Source: Patescibacteria group bacterium (GTDB lineage Bacteria; Patescibacteriota; Patescibacteriia; UBA9934). From it: DNA of 53,620 nt. A program made the position numbers and the translations under genes. The notes beneath the pieces were generated by a model that had not been told where the DNA came from, searched no databases, and worked only from the letters and a program-made list of their open reading frames with translations. The DNA is taken from the NCBI GenBank assembly GCA_041666145.1, contig JBAYHK010000006.1, forward strand, positions 1-53,620, written 5' to 3'. Shown one piece after another: positions 28,461-34,128 of this stretch (its first letter is position 1; each line of letters starts with the position of its first letter).

Positions 28461-28542
28461 ACTATTCAAAATACAGAAAGCTTAAAATCATACTCGTGTG
28501 TTTCTTGCTCGCGTATGGTAGTTCCACCGCGTTCCACAATGT

Positions 28543-28733
28543 GGAGCCATGAAAAATCACTAACTTCCGTTAGTGATTTTTCATTTCTCTGGGTGGGATC
28601 AGAACCCATGACCAATGTGTTGGGTTCGATGACACAAGCGAGCGAGCGGAACTGTTGCGACATTTATGTTCACAACAGTTCCCGAGCGAGCGCAGTGTCA
28701 TATGGCTCTGCCATATCCCCACCCTCGGAGCCA
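28543..28733 (+). repeat. Gene-less ~190-bp unit, copy 2
   Basis: Differs from copy 1 mainly in hairpin loops and a compensatory stem pair; tRNA 3' duplicate at 28715-28733. Confidence 0.9.
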
Positions 28734-28863
28734 TGTGGAAGCGACCGATGCAAATTGGTCGCTTTTGCATTTTGTATATTTATAAGCCCGTTATTGACAA
28801 TAAAGCTTTTTTTGATAAACTTCTCTCTCATCTTCACCGCTTAACCCAGGAGGATCAAACAAG

Positions 28864-29100
28864 ATGAGTGCCAATAACTACCCACCGATTCCTAACGGAA
28901 CCATGGTCAAGACCACTGTTCCGAACAGTGACATGGCCGGAGGATGGAACGAACTTGCACTAGCTGAGCGTCTTGGCAGGTGGGGCAAGAAAGGTACCGT
29001 CGTTGAACACAGCGATTCGCACGGTCTCTGTTATAAGGTCATGTTCGATGACAATGCCGTCGCCTGGTTCGATCCTCAAGAATTCGAGTTGAGCACATAG
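28864..29100 (+). CDS. 78-aa small beta-barrel-like (SH3/KOW-like) orphan (cassette cargo)
   Basis: TTGACA-16-TAAACT, SD AGGAGG; pattern G.MVK...GTVVE...YKVMFD...WF. Confidence 0.65.
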   Translation: MSANNYPPIPNGTMVKTTVPNSDMAGGWNELALAERLGRWGKKGTVVEHSDSHGLCYKVMFDDNAVAWFDPQEFELST

Positions 29101-29325
29101 GTTGCCTTCGAGTTGTCTCATCCGCCCGCCAGAGCCGCTATATGAGCCGCTCACTCTGGTTGGCGGTTTCGTTTTTAATCAATAAACCAAATCCGACTCT
29201 GTAAGCTTCGGGATGCTAATGCATCCCTCATATTTCTCAACCGCAGTTCGAACGGAGTCGACAATGTGGCGCCACATAAATCATCAGGATTTTCCTGGTG
29301 ATTTTTGTTATGATCTTTGTTAATT

Positions 29326-30321
29326 ATGAAGTTCAAGAAAAACACAAAAAATCAGCTCGCGGTTTATCAAGCTAAATCTGGGGCGATTGAGCTTAGGGCA
29401 GATGCAACGAAAAAGACGATATGGGCGACTCAGGCGCAAATTGCCGATATTTTTGTGGTTGAGCGATCGGTAGTGACGAAGCACATTCGGAATCTTTTTC
29501 ATGACAAGGAGCTGGACGAACGTTCAGTATGTGCAAAATTTGCACATACTGCTGGTGATGGCAAAACGTATCAAGTTCAAGCGTACAACCTTGATGTTGT
29601 TTTGAGTGTGGGTTATAGGACAAACTCAAGGCGAGCTGTTGAATTTCGTAAATGGGCAACCACGGTTTTGCGTCAACACATCGCCCTCGGTTACACCATC
29701 AATCGATCGATGATCGCGGCGCATTATGACGAATTCATGAAAGCCGTCGGCGACATCAAGGCTTTGCTTCCCGTCAATCAGATGGTTGATTCTGCAAGTG
29801 TTCTTGAGCTCATCCGTGCCTTTGCTGATACGTGGCTTTCGTTGGATGCGTACGACAAGGACGCTCTTGAGATGAAAGGCGTCACCAAGAAACAATCGGT
29901 GCTTACTGCCAATGAACTTGAATCTGCTTTAGTACAGCTCAAACGCAATCTCATGGAAAAGGGTGAAGCGACCGATCTGTTTGGCGCTGAACGATCTACT
30001 GGCGCGATCGAGGGGATTGTTGGAAACGTCATGCAATCTTTTAGCGGCAAAGCAATGTATCCGAGTATCGAAGAAAAAGCTGCTCATCTTTTGTACTTCG
30101 TTGTCAAAAATCATCCGTTCATCGACGGCAATAAACGTTCCGGTGCTTTTGCATTTGTGTGGTTCTTGCGTCGCGCCAAACGACTTGACCCAACCCGCAT
30201 GTCTCCAGAGGCACTCACCGCGCTAACACTTTTGATTGCTGAAAGTAATCCGAAAGATAAATCGAAGATGGTTGGTTTGGTGTGTCGACTACTGGTTAAT
30301 AAACCAGTTTCGTTTCTGTGA
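29326..30321 (+). CDS. RhuM-family N-domain fused to a Fic/Doc domain (cassette cargo)
   Basis: IWATQAQIA.IF...YNLD.V.SVGYR.NS (RhuM) and HPFIDGNKRSG (Fic motif). Confidence 0.9.
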   Translation: MKFKKNTKNQLAVYQAKSGAIELRADATKKTIWATQAQIADIFVVERSVVTKHIRNLFHDKELDERSVCAKFAHTAGDGKTYQVQAYNLDVVLSVGYRTNSRRAVEFRKWATTVLRQHIALGYTINRSMIAAHYDEFMKAVGDIKALLPVNQMVDSASVLELIRAFADTWLSLDAYDKDALEMKGVTKKQSVLTANELESALVQLKRNLMEKGEATDLFGAERSTGAIEGIVGNVMQSFSGKAMYPSIEEKAAHLLYFVVKNHPFIDGNKRSGAFAFVWFLRRAKRLDPTRMSPEALTALTLLIAESNPKDKSKMVGLVCRLLVNKPVSFL

Positions 30322-30493
30322 GCCTGGAAATACTGACGTACCCAAAACCAAATCTGCCTCTGTGAACTTCGGGATACTGATGGAGCCTTCGTATTCCTCA
30401 ACTGCAATTCGAACGGAGTTAACGATGTGGAACCAGAAACCACATCATGCTCATCATGTGTTTTCTTTTTGTCACGGTGTAGGATGTGCGTAT

Positions 30494-31777: not shown

Positions 31778-32013
31778 TTATGAGCTTATTTCAGTAAATA
31801 TGAAGAAGTTTAGGCTGTGCTTTGGGATGCTAATGTATCCCTCATATTCCTCAATTGTAGTTCGAGTGGAGTCGACGATGTGGAGCCGGCATAACCCTCA
31901 GCATTTTGCCCACCGTCGCCTAGCGGCTATAGTGACAGGCTCGGGTTTTTGATTTTACAAAACTCATTTTTTATGCCATATTATCAGGTCCACAACACCC
32001 CCAGGAGGACTCA

Positions 32014-32430
32014 ATGCTTCACCCCCAGCTCATCGCTTTGCTCACTCAAACTGGCATCGGATTCGACTCTTTGGACATCGAGCTCGAGGAACGCGGTCCG
32101 AACCTGTTCGTCGTGGTCCAGAACGCCAACGCCGTACGTCGCCTCGTAGTTCAGGGCGTTGATCGTCCGCGCAAGGTGCGACGCAACCACTACAAACCGA
32201 TCACCGCCACCTACGCGGACGCCGATGGCTTCATGACCATCTACGAGATCTTCCTATTCACCGAGCTTTGGATCAAGAAGGAGGTTGCGGAGGAGATGAT
32301 CCGTAGCGGCGAATTGATCATGGCTCAGGCCAAGGAGATCCCCCAGCAGGATCTCTACTGGCGGGACGACCCGTGGTTTCAGCAGAACCGCGCGTTCGTG
32401 CTCCAAGGCCGCGAGCCCTACATGCCATAG
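32014..32430 (+). CDS. Orphan hypothetical protein (cassette cargo)
   Basis: SD AGGAGG 32003-32008; C-rich third codon positions; followed by a shared hairpin family. Confidence 0.7.
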   Translation: MLHPQLIALLTQTGIGFDSLDIELEERGPNLFVVVQNANAVRRLVVQGVDRPRKVRRNHYKPITATYADADGFMTIYEIFLFTELWIKKEVAEEMIRSGELIMAQAKEIPQQDLYWRDDPWFQQNRAFVLQGREPYMP

Positions 32431-32621
32431 GCCCCTTTTGTTCGTCGAGGATCGATGAACAACAACTCTACCGTCCATCACGAGCGCCGCACGGGCCGCT
32501 CATCTCTGGTGGACGGTTTCGTGTTTTCACTAACTTGTTCCACAACGTAGAGCCAACAGGGTTCGAATTGGAAACAGTTCGAGTTTTGTTTTACTCTGGA
32601 GAATAAGTTGGTTCTGAAGAT

Positions 32622-33326
32622 ATGAGAAAACTGCTTTATATATTGATCGAATTATTGCTTTTAATCTTAGTATTTTTCGGTGTATACAAAATCAGTAAAT
32701 CAAGATGGTTTCAATTTTTTGGAGATATAACGAGTAGTGTCAATACCGAGGAACGGGTAGTCGCTCTCACATTTGATGACGGTCCAACCGAATATACAAA
32801 TACGGTTCTTGATATTCTCGAGGGAAAAAATGTCTCAGCAACTTTTTATGTTACGGGATTGGATTTAGAAAAGCATTCAGATATTGGCACAGCTATTGTT
32901 GAGGCAGGCCACGACCTTGGTAACCATTCATATTCTCATTCAAGATTTTTGTTGAAATCTCAACATTTCATCGACAATGAAATCCAAACGACAAGTGAAC
33001 TGATTCGTCAAGCTGGATTTGATGGTGAGATTACATTCAGACCACCGTACGGAAAAAAGCTTTTCGGTCTTCCTTGGTATCTTATGATGCATGGAATTAA
33101 GACAGTGACTTGGGATGTTGAGCCTGACTCCTTCGGTTCCGAATCAGATTCCATTGTTCAGTATACGATTGAGCACGTAAAAAATGGATCGATTATTCTG
33201 CTGCATTCATCCTGTGAGTCATGTAACGGACAGCGAGAAGCGATTCAGAAAATCATTGATGCTTTAAACGAACAAGGTTATGGGTTTGTTAAGGTTTCTG
33301 AATTATTGCGGCTAAATCAGAACTAA
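32622..33326 (+). CDS. NodB-type polysaccharide deacetylase with N-terminal anchor (cassette cargo)
   Basis: TFDDGP, HSYSH, FRPPYG, ILLH motifs. Confidence 0.92.
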   Translation: MRKLLYILIELLLLILVFFGVYKISKSRWFQFFGDITSSVNTEERVVALTFDDGPTEYTNTVLDILEGKNVSATFYVTGLDLEKHSDIGTAIVEAGHDLGNHSYSHSRFLLKSQHFIDNEIQTTSELIRQAGFDGEITFRPPYGKKLFGLPWYLMMHGIKTVTWDVEPDSFGSESDSIVQYTIEHVKNGSIILLHSSCESCNGQREAIQKIIDALNEQGYGFVKVSELLRLNQN

Positions 33327-33676
33327 AACTATCCCAATCCATCGTTCTGAATGCGTCCACGAGGCAGAGCCGGCATCACCTTCGGCATTTTCCCCATTCT
33401 CGCCTAGCGGTTACGGTGGTCAGGCTGGGGTTTTTGCTATGTTTTGGAGGTACTCAGGGTGGGTTAGAACTTTTTTTGAAGATATTGAGCAGTTGTGATG
33501 TTTTTATAAAATCAGGGGGTTAAAATGGACAAAAGAGGATTTTTTTGCTATTATTATTAGTTATTTTGAGAAGGAATTCTACGTCAATGTGGCACGAAAC
33601 GTGCTTTATTGACGCAGTGTCGTGATTTGATGCAATTCCTGCACATATCGCGGCATACCACGAAGGAGACATTCTC

Positions 33677-33958
33677 ATGACTGTTTTTCAGATTAGTCCC
33701 GATGATCGTCCAGTTGCTCAACATAAACTCATCAAGAAGGCCGCTTTGATGATGTTCGAAACGCCTTCGACCTTTCTTGCCATGATGGTTATCCCGGGAT
33801 CTGTCGTGGTCATGGTCTTCGGAACTCGTGGAGCGTAGTGGTCTCAGGCGGTTCCTTTGGTGGCCGCTGTGTTCCTGCTAGGACTGCTCTTCCGGAGTCG
33901 GTACCGGGAGTGCAAAATAGTGAATCAAATGTTGCGTAGCATTCGGTCACCGGAGTAG
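33677..33958 (+). pseudogene. Two-TM membrane protein (93 codons) interrupted by an in-frame TAG at 33836-33838 (cassette cargo; absent from the ORF track)
   Basis: Promoter TTGACG-16-TGCAAT, SD AAGGAG; reading frame continues WSQAVPLVAAVFLLGLLF... to TAG 33956-33958, then a terminator. Confidence 0.65.
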
Positions 33959-34128
33959 CCACAATCTCACCGCCCACCACGAGCGTCATACGAGCCGCTC
34001 ATTCTGGTGGGCGGTTTCGTTTTTAATCAATAAGCGCGTTCGACGGTGTGGAGCCAGCATAGCCCTTAGTATTTTGCTGCGTTTTCAGGCTACCCGAAGC
34101 GGGGTTAGAACTGATAGACTAGATTTAT

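What the first reader, a model, noticed from the sequence alone, without database searches (positions are those of the whole stretch)
28466..34056. Every gene cassette ends in a minus-strand peptide tail that starts exactly at the att core (W-L-H-I-V-D/E...R-T), possibly relics of split recombinase genes
SEEN: translating the minus strand from each core gives related tails: WLHIVERGGTTIREQ..F* (28466-28549), WRHIVDSVRTAVEKYEGCISIPKLTESDLVY* (29179-29274), WFHIVNSVRIAVEEYEGSISIPKF (from 30435), RLHIVDSTRTTIEEYEGYISIPK (from 31888), WLYVVEQVS (from 32555), RLCLVDAFRTMDW..* (33289-33372) and WLHTVERAY* (34027-34056). The same frame across the tRNA reads WLRGWGSNPRP. Tails converge on, and often abut or overlap, the cargo gene stop. 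KNOWN: some integrases have attP inside their own 3' end (e.g. myxophage Mx8), so integration swaps the C-terminus. INFERENCE: these are orphaned C-termini of several related recombinase genes, each marking an independent integration. I recall similar motifs at the ends of tRNA-adjacent CPR recombinases but have not verified this.
Basis: partly seen in the sequence, partly recalled or inferred. Interest (0 to 1): 0.75.

Follow-up and report, generated by a model that had tools for sequence, protein, structure and literature searches.

The report
Orphan conserved mini-ORF at cassette junctions
Each small gene unit stacked behind a tRNA-Asn gene in this groundwater bacterium ends in a start-less, roughly 31-codon reading frame that begins at the recombination core; it evolves like a real protein-coding sequence, yet in public data it is never attached to a longer gene.

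Summary
Downstream of tRNA-Asn (27296-27370) lie nine units separated by copies of the tRNA 3' end, (G)GAGCC(A/G).

The frame shows coding constraint. Across 25 distinct copies from about 20 loci, pN/pS is 0.35, against 0.9-1.5 in four other frames. Third-position entropy is two to three times higher than at the other positions. The closest pairs differ almost only synonymously. The stop falls at codon 28-32 in 16 of 25 copies.

The "split recombinase" reading is not supported. Among the matches from three protein searches (libraries of 5.8 and 1.84 billion proteins), the tail sits only at the end of ORFs of 34-82 aa. One related locus of 23 (L040) has a tyrosine integrase next to a tail. That integrase is complete, stops 70 nt before the core, and is in another frame.

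Best reading: the tail is the far half of a short frame that crosses the crossover point of the attachment site of an integrase/primase element family. It is silent in arrays and complete only when joined to an arm that supplies a start. L040's arm supplies ATG plus four codons. What the peptide does is unknown.

The parts
27296..27370 (+). tRNA-Asn(GTT). Its 3' end CTCGGAGCCA is the attachment core (attB side).
   Evidence: ARAGORN; Rfam tRNA 69.5 bits
27371..27555 (+). Gene-less 185-nt unit, copy 1. It has a bidirectional terminator hairpin, an inverted degenerate tRNA-Asn 3' half, and ends in a 19-nt copy of the tRNA 3' end.
   Evidence: Repeat families D5/D8/D14; sequence
27556..28549 (+). 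Unit 2: shared 5' module, methyltransferase gene (27678-28460), diverged tail and core
28466..28549 (-). Tail J2, WLHIVERGGTTIREQETHEYDFKLSVF* (diverged type 1)
28550..28733 (+). Gene-less 185-nt unit, copy 2 (93-100% identical to copy 1)
29122..29168 (+). Shared terminator hairpin of the 3' module. It is also at 32470-32520 and 33970-34017.
   Evidence: Families D9/D19; alignment; terminator scan
29179..29274 (-). Tail J4, intact type 1: WRHIVDSVRTAVEKYEGCISIPKLTESDLVY*. An in-frame ATG lies at codon -1, supplied by the next unit's arm.
29317..30321 (+). Cargo gene, Fic/RhuM family, 77% identical to the cargo in L008
30289..30435 (-). Tail J5: WFHIVNSVRIAVEEYEGSISIPKFTEADLVL... The usual stop is lost, and the frame runs 33 nt into the Fic gene's 3' end.
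31778..31888 (-). Tail J6: RLHIVDSTRTTIEEYEGYISIPKH... It matches type 1 to codon 23 and then diverges.
32478..32555 (-). Tail J7, an internal-deletion derivative. The first 7 codons are followed directly by the shared terminator.
33289..33372 (-). Tail J8: RLCLVDAFRTMDW...* It is diverged but keeps R9-T10. It overlaps the deacetylase gene's 3' end by 38 nt.
34027..34056 (-). Tail J9: WLHTVERAY*. An internal-deletion derivative of the J4-type module, and the last core of the array.
34057..34128 (+). Shared 5' module (hairpin plus promoter-like stretch) in front of the next methyltransferase gene. Relatives are at 27556-27670, 31889-31979 and 33373-33463.
   Evidence: Families D3/D6

Best explanation
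The tails are the 'P-arm' half of the attachment site of a family of tRNA-targeting integrative elements. That arm carries the last 31 or so codons, with the stop, of a short reading frame that runs across the crossover point.

Shown:
- The units are stacked by recombination at GGAGCC, the tRNA-Asn 3' end.
- Every gene-carrying unit has the order core | hairpin (+ promoter-like stretch) | cargo on the + strand | terminator | tail on the - strand | core.
- The tail evolves under purifying selection at the protein level.
- In arrays the tail is preceded by a terminator-like hairpin and has no consistent start, so there it is silent.
- A relative carries integrase, primase and a restriction system directly upstream of hairpin, core and tail.

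Inferred:
- The frame becomes a complete small gene of about 36 aa only when a core joins the tail to an arm that supplies an in-frame start. The integrase-side arm of L040 does this (ATG GTG ACC TTT CTG | TGG CTC ...). That joining would happen in the excised circle, or when an integrase-bearing element sits next to a unit.
- Excision can use any two cores, so tails would be swapped between integrase-bearing elements and integrase-less units. Each tail would be tested whenever its unit is mobilised, which would keep it coding.

The peptide's function is unknown. Its predicted shape is an acidic helix followed by a conserved GYISIPK stretch. A signal that distinguishes the excised from the integrated state is the obvious candidate.
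For: Array anatomy:
- Anatomy and cores.
- Shared 5' and 3' modules flank unrelated cargo.

Coding signature:
- 12 copies: variable sites by codon position 10/9/19; pN/pS 0.22, against 1.1-1.6 in four other frames; 0 of 500 shuffles as low.
- 25 copies: pN/pS 0.35; entropy by codon position 13.8/9.4/26.0; 0 of 300 shuffles as low. The closest pairs have synonymous:nonsynonymous differences of 6:0, 8:0, 7:1 and 6:1. The stop is at codon 28-32 in 16 of 25.
- There is no conserved RNA or DNA structure that could explain the conservation: -3.2 kcal/mol and negligible covariation.

Context of the tail:
- Among the matches of the protein searches the tail is found only at the end of tiny ORFs.
- The hairpin directly beside the core is strong at five of ten window cores, z <= -3.6, and hairpins precede the tails in all other loci.
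- L040 reads integrase (phrog_1, PF00589), stop, hairpin, core, tail, with an in-frame ATG five codons before W. Primase, an MmeI-type restriction system and a helicase lie upstream.

Signs of mobility:
- The same tail sits beside unrelated cargo in many genomes, and a Fic cargo is 77% identical in two arrays.
- A low-depth contig joins two copies of the shared 5' module 20-50 nt right of cores J1 and J8, leaving out 5849 nt.
Against: - Only one integrase-linked example exists among 23 loci.
- Its ATG sits at the loop/stem edge of the hairpin and has no clear Shine-Dalgarno sequence.
- An in-frame start before a stop occurs in 9 of 15 copies, roughly what I would expect by chance (my estimate, not computed).
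- The commonest neighbouring arm (the shared 5' module) puts a stop four codons before W.
- In their own circular form most window units have in-frame stops just upstream of the tail.
- J7 and J9 show that units persist in arrays without codons 8-30.
- There is no RNA or peptide evidence; no RNA run holds the region.
- AlphaFold gives only a single helix.
- I could not tell whether L040 is in the excised or the integrated configuration.
Confidence: 0.45

Rival explanations
1. One reading: each tail is the orphaned C-terminus of a recombinase gene whose own 3' end contained attP (as in Mx8 or SSV). Integration then split the gene and left the tail at the far junction.
For: - The geometry fits. 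The tail starts at the core and reads away from it, on the strand antisense to the tRNA.
- The coding signature is real.
- The precedent exists: Mx8 has attP inside int (PMC6070905), and SSV-type integrases are split on integration (PMC7253208).
- An integrase lies next to one tail.
Against: - Among the matches from libraries of 5.8 and 1.84 billion proteins the tail is found only at the end of ORFs of 34-82 aa.
- No long protein ends in WLRGWGSNPRP[KE]D, the ending a split integrase would get from the tRNA.
- No gene body reads into any of about 35 cores; a hairpin is always there.
- The L040 integrase has its catalytic Tyr and its own stop 70 nt before the core, lies in another frame, and shows no similarity to the tail.
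Confidence: 0.12
2. Fossil only. The tail is non-functional DNA kept as the integrase-binding arm. Its codon pattern is inherited from an unsampled ancestral gene and has simply not yet decayed.
For: - The context is silent: a terminator-like hairpin lies upstream and there is no consistent start.
- Decayed copies exist: W changed to TAG (L018), an early stop (L034, L001b), a frameshift (L011), and internal deletions in J7 and J9.
- The roughly 21 nt next to the core are kept even in the deletion derivatives, as expected of a core-type binding site.
Against: - The most similar pairs, which diverged most recently, differ almost only synonymously (6:0, 8:0, 7:1). Neutral decay should give about 1:3.
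- The stop position is conserved, and with different stop codons.
- pS is near saturation (0.67) while pN stays at 0.23.
- No living parent gene is found in very large protein libraries.
Confidence: 0.2
3. Replacement 3' end for a host target gene, in the way phage 21 and e14 carry a substitute icd end. Units normally insert into the 3' end of a protein gene and bring a spare C-terminus.
For: It would explain ongoing purifying selection and the exact start at the core. The icd precedent is cited from my own knowledge and was not checked here.
Against: - A host gene ending in the tail should be annotated as a long protein. None is among the matches.
- Wherever the proximal end of an array was seen, the target is a tRNA-Asn 3' end or a bare GAGCCA next to a terminator (window, L001, L025, L037).
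Confidence: 0.05
4. An independent micro-protein translated in place in the array, from whatever start lies upstream or from a non-canonical start.
For: - 23 copies are called as small ORFs by gene finders.
- J4, P0007 and P0009 have ATG, and L001a and L014 have TTG, directly before W.
Against: - Six of 15 intact copies have no in-frame start before a stop.
- The N-extensions are unrelated to one another and are translated hairpin and T-run sequence.
- A terminator-like hairpin ends 0-2 nt before the frame.
- No Shine-Dalgarno sequence is evident.
Confidence: 0.08

Closest known systems
Myxophage Mx8 intP/attP (attP inside the integrase gene; integration gives int a new 3' end)
   Same: - A reading frame crosses the crossover point.
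- The target is a tRNA gene 3' end (the tRNA target of Mx8 is from my own knowledge, not from the paper read).
- The displaced 3' coding piece ends up at the far junction, reading away from the core (PMC6070905).
   Different: Here the frame that crosses the core is not the integrase. The only linked integrase is complete and ends before a hairpin and the core. The crossing frame is only about 36 codons long.
Integration-dependent immunity of mycobacteriophages (BPs, Brujita, Charlie): attP inside the repressor gene
   Same: Integration separates a short C-terminal coding piece from the rest of the gene, so the excised and integrated forms encode different products (PMC3694055).
   Different: There the split gene is a full-size repressor and the piece is a degradation tag. 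Here no gene body lies upstream of the core, only a possible start plus four codons. Most tails sit on integrase-less single-gene units.
SSV-type 'suicidal' integrases of archaea
   Same: The att site lies inside an ORF. Integration leaves gene fragments at both junctions, and fragments of different origin can be re-assembled (PMC7253208).
   Different: No N-terminal integrase fragment is present at any junction. The host here is bacterial (Patescibacteria-like groundwater genomes). The integrase seen is intact.
Integron cassette arrays and CALINs (clusters of attC sites lacking an integrase)
   Same: - Co-oriented, mostly single-gene units separated by a repeated recombination site.
- Arrays are usually found without a recombinase nearby.
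- Cargo families are shared between genomes.
   Different: - No IntI was found.
- The site is a tRNA 3' end core plus a coding-like arm, not a folded attC palindrome.
- Units carry their own terminator and a promoter-like 5' module.
- The array is anchored on a tRNA gene.
tRNA-anchored genomic islands built by tandem accretion (Islander-type islands; tycheposons)
   Same: - A tyrosine integrase is involved.
- The tRNA 3' end is regenerated.
- Displaced tRNA fragments mark the borders (the 185-nt units).
- The linked element has integrase plus primase, and integrase-less units travel with it (PMC4383910 abstract; tycheposon preprint listed).
   Different: - The units are very small (0.2-1.5 kb).
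- The shared identity is only 6-7 nt.
- Every unit has a conserved start-less ORF in its arm. I did not find this described for those systems in the searches I ran.

Membership tests
Integron | IntI-type tyrosine recombinase adjacent to the array (attI) | tested here: not met
   None of the 30 window ORFs submitted to Pfam is a recombinase, and a motif scan of the window and 22 related loci finds only the L040 integrase. That integrase matches the general phage integrase family (phrog_1, PF00589 + PF14659), not IntI.
Integron | attC: an imperfect palindrome that folds as a hairpin with paired R''/R' cores | tested here: not met
   The consensus fold of 12 tails is -3.2 kcal/mol with negligible covariation. 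The conservation follows codon positions instead.
Mx8-type attP inside int | The integrase ORF runs through the crossover core | tested here: not met
   The L040 integrase stops at 9943-9945. The core starts at 10016, a hairpin lies between them, and the frames differ. No long protein carries the tail.
Mx8-type attP inside int | Target is the 3' end of a tRNA gene, and the orphan 3' coding piece lies at the distal junction | tested here: met
   The tRNA-Asn 3' end GGAGCCA equals the core. Tails lie left of each core and read away from it. The same holds in L001 and L025.
SSV-type suicidal integrase | Int(N) and Int(C) pseudogene halves flank the integrated element | tested here: not met
   No ORF reads into any of about 35 cores. 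The query with the tRNA-antisense ending finds only ORFs of 37-64 aa.
Integration-dependent immunity | attP inside a repressor gene, with the C-terminal piece acting as a degradation tag | tested here: inconclusive
   No repressor-like gene lies upstream of any tail. In L040 the upstream gene is the integrase. Whether the ...DLVY end acts as a degron cannot be tested here.
tRNA-targeting integrative element (Islander-type island) | A tyrosine integrase, with the element bounded by the regenerated tRNA and a displaced tRNA 3' fragment | tested here: met
   The 185-nt units end in a 19-nt tRNA fragment, and an L025 unit ends in that host's own tRNA variant. The integrase-bearing relative is L040. 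For the gene-carrying units the repeat is only 6-7 nt.

The most novel reading that the evidence does not exclude
The tail is the body of a protein of about 36 aa whose start codon lies on the other side of the crossover point. The gene would then exist only in the excised circle, or where an integrase-bearing element abuts a unit. Under this reading it is a recombination-state-dependent micro-gene that every mobilisable unit must carry, and that requirement is what keeps a silent, start-less ORF under purifying selection across many Patescibacteria-like genomes.
Probability: 0.25. Interest if true: 0.8.

Novelty: new variant of a known kind. Interest (0 to 1): 0.6.

Why it matters
Reading frames that cross an attachment site are known for a few phages, where they act as switches between the free and the integrated state. 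Here the same principle appears in a different form. A conserved, start-less 31-codon frame sits on mostly integrase-less, mostly single-gene units that pile up behind tRNA genes in ultra-small groundwater bacteria.

If the frame is functional, it is a compact sensor of recombination state, and a marker that every mobilisable unit must keep. If it is only a fossil, it still gives a sequence tag for finding these arrays and their missing helper elements in metagenomes. It also shows that these genomes have an integron-like gene-stacking site built on a tRNA and an ordinary tyrosine integrase.

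Tried and rejected
Searches for a parent protein:
- A 4-tail profile against 5.8 billion proteins gave 2 tiny ORFs.
- HMMER against 1.84 billion cluster representatives gave 8 tiny ORFs and one chance hit in a long repeat protein (P0004).
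- A 20-tail profile gave 23 ORFs of 34-82 aa.

Search for a split integrase that reads into the tRNA:
- A query made of WLRGWGSNPRP[KE]D found only 3 tiny ORFs.

Family and structure libraries for the tail:
- Pfam, PHROGs and NCBIfam gave nothing usable.
- PDB sequences gave an insignificant Lon N-domain match, E = 0.06.
- tblastn against phages and plasmids gave nothing relevant.
- hhalign against the L040 integrase gave nothing.

IMG/VR:
- No tails and no relatives of the L040 integrase.

Partner inside the unit:
- The circular-form junction of each window unit has in-frame stops or no start in most units.

Partner by inversion:
- The inverted cores in the window lie inside unrelated genes.

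Other ideas rejected:
- RNA or DNA structure as the cause of conservation; Rfam finds only the tRNA.
- An IS200/IS605-type (Y1 HUH) mechanism. It was considered because of the hairpins and a Y1_Tnp pseudogene in L037, and rejected because the hairpins are not conserved in sequence and that gene lies on the cargo strand.
- Unannotated window ORFs near the array: one looks like a multi-pass membrane protein and one like a small exported protein, judged from their translations alone; neither looks like a recombinase.

Uninformative:
- No RNA run holds the region.
- The AlphaFold model is a single helix, so no fold search was made.

Full report
**1. What is in the window**

tRNA-Asn(GTT) lies at 27296-27370 on the + strand. 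Its last bases, CTCGGAGCCA, recur nine more times as (G)GAGCC(A/G). The copies end at 27555, 28549, 28733, 29274, 30435, 31888, 32555, 33372 and 34056, and there are none further on.

Between these cores lie nine units.
- Two are gene-less 185-nt copies of one another (27371-27555 and 28550-28733). Each ends in 19 nt identical to the tRNA 3' end.
- Seven carry one + strand gene each: a methyltransferase, a 78-aa ORF, Fic/RhuM, an arylsulfotransferase-like protein, a 138-aa ORF, a polysaccharide deacetylase and a 53-aa ORF.

Right of most cores is a hairpin followed by a T-run. It is very strong at the tRNA and at J2, J3, J4 and J7 (z <= -3.6). At J1, J6, J8 and J9 it is part of a shared 110-nt 5' module (families D3/D6). 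Three units also share a 3' terminator module (D9/D19).

None of the 30 window ORFs submitted to Pfam is a recombinase, and a motif scan found no tyrosine recombinase in the window. Two further ORFs without Pfam hits were read by eye and do not look like recombinases.

**2. The observation**

The tRNA itself reads WLRGWGSNPRPKD* in that frame.

Two refinements apply.
- The 185-nt units end in a tRNA copy, not in this tail.
- J7 and J9 are the J4-type 3' module with about 66 nt deleted from the middle. They keep only about 21 nt beside the core, the last codon and stop, and the terminator.

J2 and J8 are diverged relatives of the long form. They share xLxxV[ED]... and T10; J8 also keeps R9.

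**3. Is it more than chance, and is it coding?**

I collected further copies in three ways:
- DNA patterns in genome and metagenome collections;
- contigs that encode small ORFs found by protein searches;
- second copies within those loci.

This gave 25 distinct DNA copies of the 'type-1' tail, consensus WLRVV[DE]xVRTA[IV]EEYEGYISIPKLTxxDLVY*. Where a sample or organism label was shown it points to groundwater metagenomes or Patescibacteria-like genomes, including a Candidatus Uhrbacteria MAG.

The codon signature is strong.
- On 12 copies, variable sites by codon position are 10/9/19. None of 500 column shuffles is as low.
- On 25 copies (codons 4-23), pN/pS is 0.35, entropy by position is 13.8/9.4/26.0, and none of 300 shuffles is as low.
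- The changes include CGA<->AGA (Arg), AAG<->AGA (Lys/Arg), GAY<->GAR (Asp/Glu) and GTT/ATT/ATA/CTG (Val/Ile/Leu).
- The closest pairs differ 6:0, 8:0, 7:1 and 6:1 (synonymous:nonsynonymous).
- The stop falls at codon 28-32 in 16 of 25 copies, using TGA, TAA or TAG.
- The + strand frames have stops or show no constraint.
- RNAalifold finds no conserved structure: -3.2 kcal/mol and negligible covariation.

So the tail is, or very recently was, translated as protein. A minority of copies are broken: W changed to TAG in L018, early stops in L034 and L001b, a frameshift in L011, and internal deletions in J7 and J9.

**4. What the tail is attached to**

Nothing, in array context. In every copy the tail strand reads hairpin, T-run, TGGCTCC, tail.
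- An in-frame start before a stop is present in 9 of 15 copies, roughly what I would expect by chance (my estimate, not computed).
- The N-extensions of the annotated ORFs are unrelated to one another and are translated hairpin sequence.
- Building the circular form of each window unit does not help. Most have in-frame stops just upstream.
- Three protein searches return the tail only at the end of ORFs of 34-82 aa. These were a 4-tail profile and a 20-tail profile against 5.8 billion proteins, and HMMER against 1.84 billion cluster representatives. The one long protein listed, P0004, is a chance hit in a repeat protein.
- A query for proteins ending in the peptide that a gene reading into tRNA-Asn would acquire also finds only tiny ORFs.
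- Pfam, PHROGs, NCBIfam, PDB sequences, GenBank phages, plasmids and IMG/VR give nothing.

**5. The one link to a recombinase**

Locus L040 comes from a metagenome assembly in ENA. It carries the following genes in order on the tail strand:
- a DEAD helicase and an MmeI-type restriction enzyme (both on the opposite strand);
- a 319-aa ORF;
- a primase (Toprim; phrog_47);
- a 198-aa ORF;
- a 368-aa tyrosine integrase (PF14659 + PF00589; phrog_1, E = 1.5e-70).

The integrase has HILRHT...LGHTTIAMTMRYAHL and ends with TAA at 9943-9945. Then come 45 nt, a hairpin, the core TGGCTCC at 10016, and the tail WLHVVDDVRTAIQCHQDYISMPQFANIAIAH*.

The integrase frame is offset from the tail frame. hhalign finds no similarity between the integrase and the tail. 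The integrase-side arm supplies ATG GTG ACC TTT CTG directly before TGG, giving a 36-aa ORF. Among 23 related loci, about 200 kb in all, this is the only tyrosine recombinase.

**6. Interpretation**

The array is the product of site-specific recombination at the tRNA-Asn 3' end by an integrase of the L040 kind, supplied in trans. The units are small integrase-less elements.
- Their attachment site is tail-core-hairpin.
- The hairpin doubles as the terminator of the regenerated tRNA.
- Units and their modules recur with unrelated cargo in many genomes, and a Fic cargo is 77% identical in two arrays.
- One metagenome contig joins two copies of the shared 5' module 20-50 nt right of cores J1 and J8 (27574 to 33424), at about 7% of the depth.
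- In relatives the whole tRNA-plus-array segment can be inverted (L001).
- Single units occur at a bare GAGCCA next to a host terminator (L037).

Its central claim fails on the evidence in sections 4 and 5.

The reading I favour (0.45) is that the tail is the distal part of a short frame that crosses the crossover point. It would be complete only when joined to an arm that brings a start. It would be kept under selection because tails are exchanged between integrase-bearing elements and units whenever excision uses alternative cores.

The main rival (0.2) is that the tail is only an arm of the site whose codon pattern is a fossil. The synonymous bias of even the closest pairs, and the conserved stop, argue against that. 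The persistence of J7/J9-type deletions argues for it.

**7. Comparison with known systems**

Frames that cross attP are known in:
- Mx8, where the frame is int itself (PMC6070905);
- mycobacteriophages with integration-dependent immunity, where it is the repressor (PMC3694055);
- archaeal SSV-type elements, where int is split (PMC7253208).

This case differs in three ways. The crossing frame is a mini-ORF rather than int or a repressor. It sits mostly on integrase-less cargo units. The units stack into an integron-like array on a tRNA. It is not an integron, since no IntI was found and there is no attC fold. It is a new variant of a known principle, not a new kind of system.

**8. Limits**

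- There is one integrase-linked example.
- There are no expression data.
- I could not tell whether L040 is excised or integrated.
- Scans of the genome and metagenome collections were exhausted, so the integrase family could not be surveyed.

Noticed in passing
window 27371-27555 and 28550-28733: The 185-nt gene-less unit occurs twice. Besides ending in a 19-nt tRNA-Asn 3' copy, it holds an inverted, degenerate copy of the tRNA's T-arm and acceptor end (GAGTGGGATCAGAACCCACGACC). This copy is back-to-back with the tRNA across a shared bidirectional terminator. An L025 unit of the same kind ends in that host's own tRNA variant.
   Followed up: partly
L001 6600-12007, compared with window 27296-34056: In a syntenic relative (GCA_964815925.1) the whole tRNA-Asn-plus-array segment is inverted relative to the conserved FAD-oxidoreductase and Big_13 flank. 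The cargo is completely different.
   Followed up: partly
window 29122-29185, 32470-32536, 33970-34033: Three units with unrelated cargo share a terminator hairpin. Its loop holds core-like GAGCCGCT motifs (twice in the J4 copy).
   Followed up: no
window 27556-27670, 31889-31979, 33373-33463, 34057-34128; also L001, L008, L011, L018, L025: A 5' module of about 110 nt (hairpin + T-run + promoter-like stretch, GCAWAACCCTCAGCATTTTGC...GGGGTTTTTGCTATC) follows the core in many units with unrelated cargo. It puts a stop four codons before the tail frame of the preceding unit.
   Followed up: partly
window 27574 -> 33424 (run X1): A low-depth metagenome contig (depth 3.4, against about 48) joins two copies of the shared 5' module 20-50 nt right of cores J1 and J8 and skips 5849 nt. 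This is a deletion variant or a related strain lacking six gene-carrying units and the second 185-nt unit. A second joint runs from 27377 to 29291.
   Followed up: no
L001 ~10930, L010 (rc) ~49, L011 ~3502 and ~5186, L023 ~1599: A second tail type, WL[PQC]R[LI]x[FV][YF]RT[GR][KE]YL..., shares only R9-T10 (CGAAC) with type 1. Codon 16 is TGA in three copies and TGG in one, and the sequences stay similar beyond it.
   Followed up: no
L011 6670-6760: A type-1 tail whose core is GAGTAC instead of GGAGCC. It resembles the 3' end (GGGAGTACCA) of the tRNA-Ile(TAT) gene 3.4 kb upstream in the same locus. This hints that the same arm is used with other tRNA targets.
   Followed up: no
L037 10000-11400: A solitary unit away from any tRNA. 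The order is host 663-aa gene, its terminator, core, tail, cargo, a frameshifted IS200-like Y1 transposase, a hairpin, then TGGCTCG.
   Followed up: partly
window 34129-41837: Directly after the last core come three methyltransferase genes, a HAD hydrolase and a 1632-aa protein with internal repeats of about 1 kb and about 330 nt (families D1, D10, D12). It is unclear whether this is a last large unit or core genome.
   Followed up: no
window 29264-29277: At J4 the core region is a perfect 14-nt palindrome (ATGTGGCGCCACAT). At J5, GATGTGG...CCACATC flank the core. These may be core-type recombinase half-sites.
   Followed up: no
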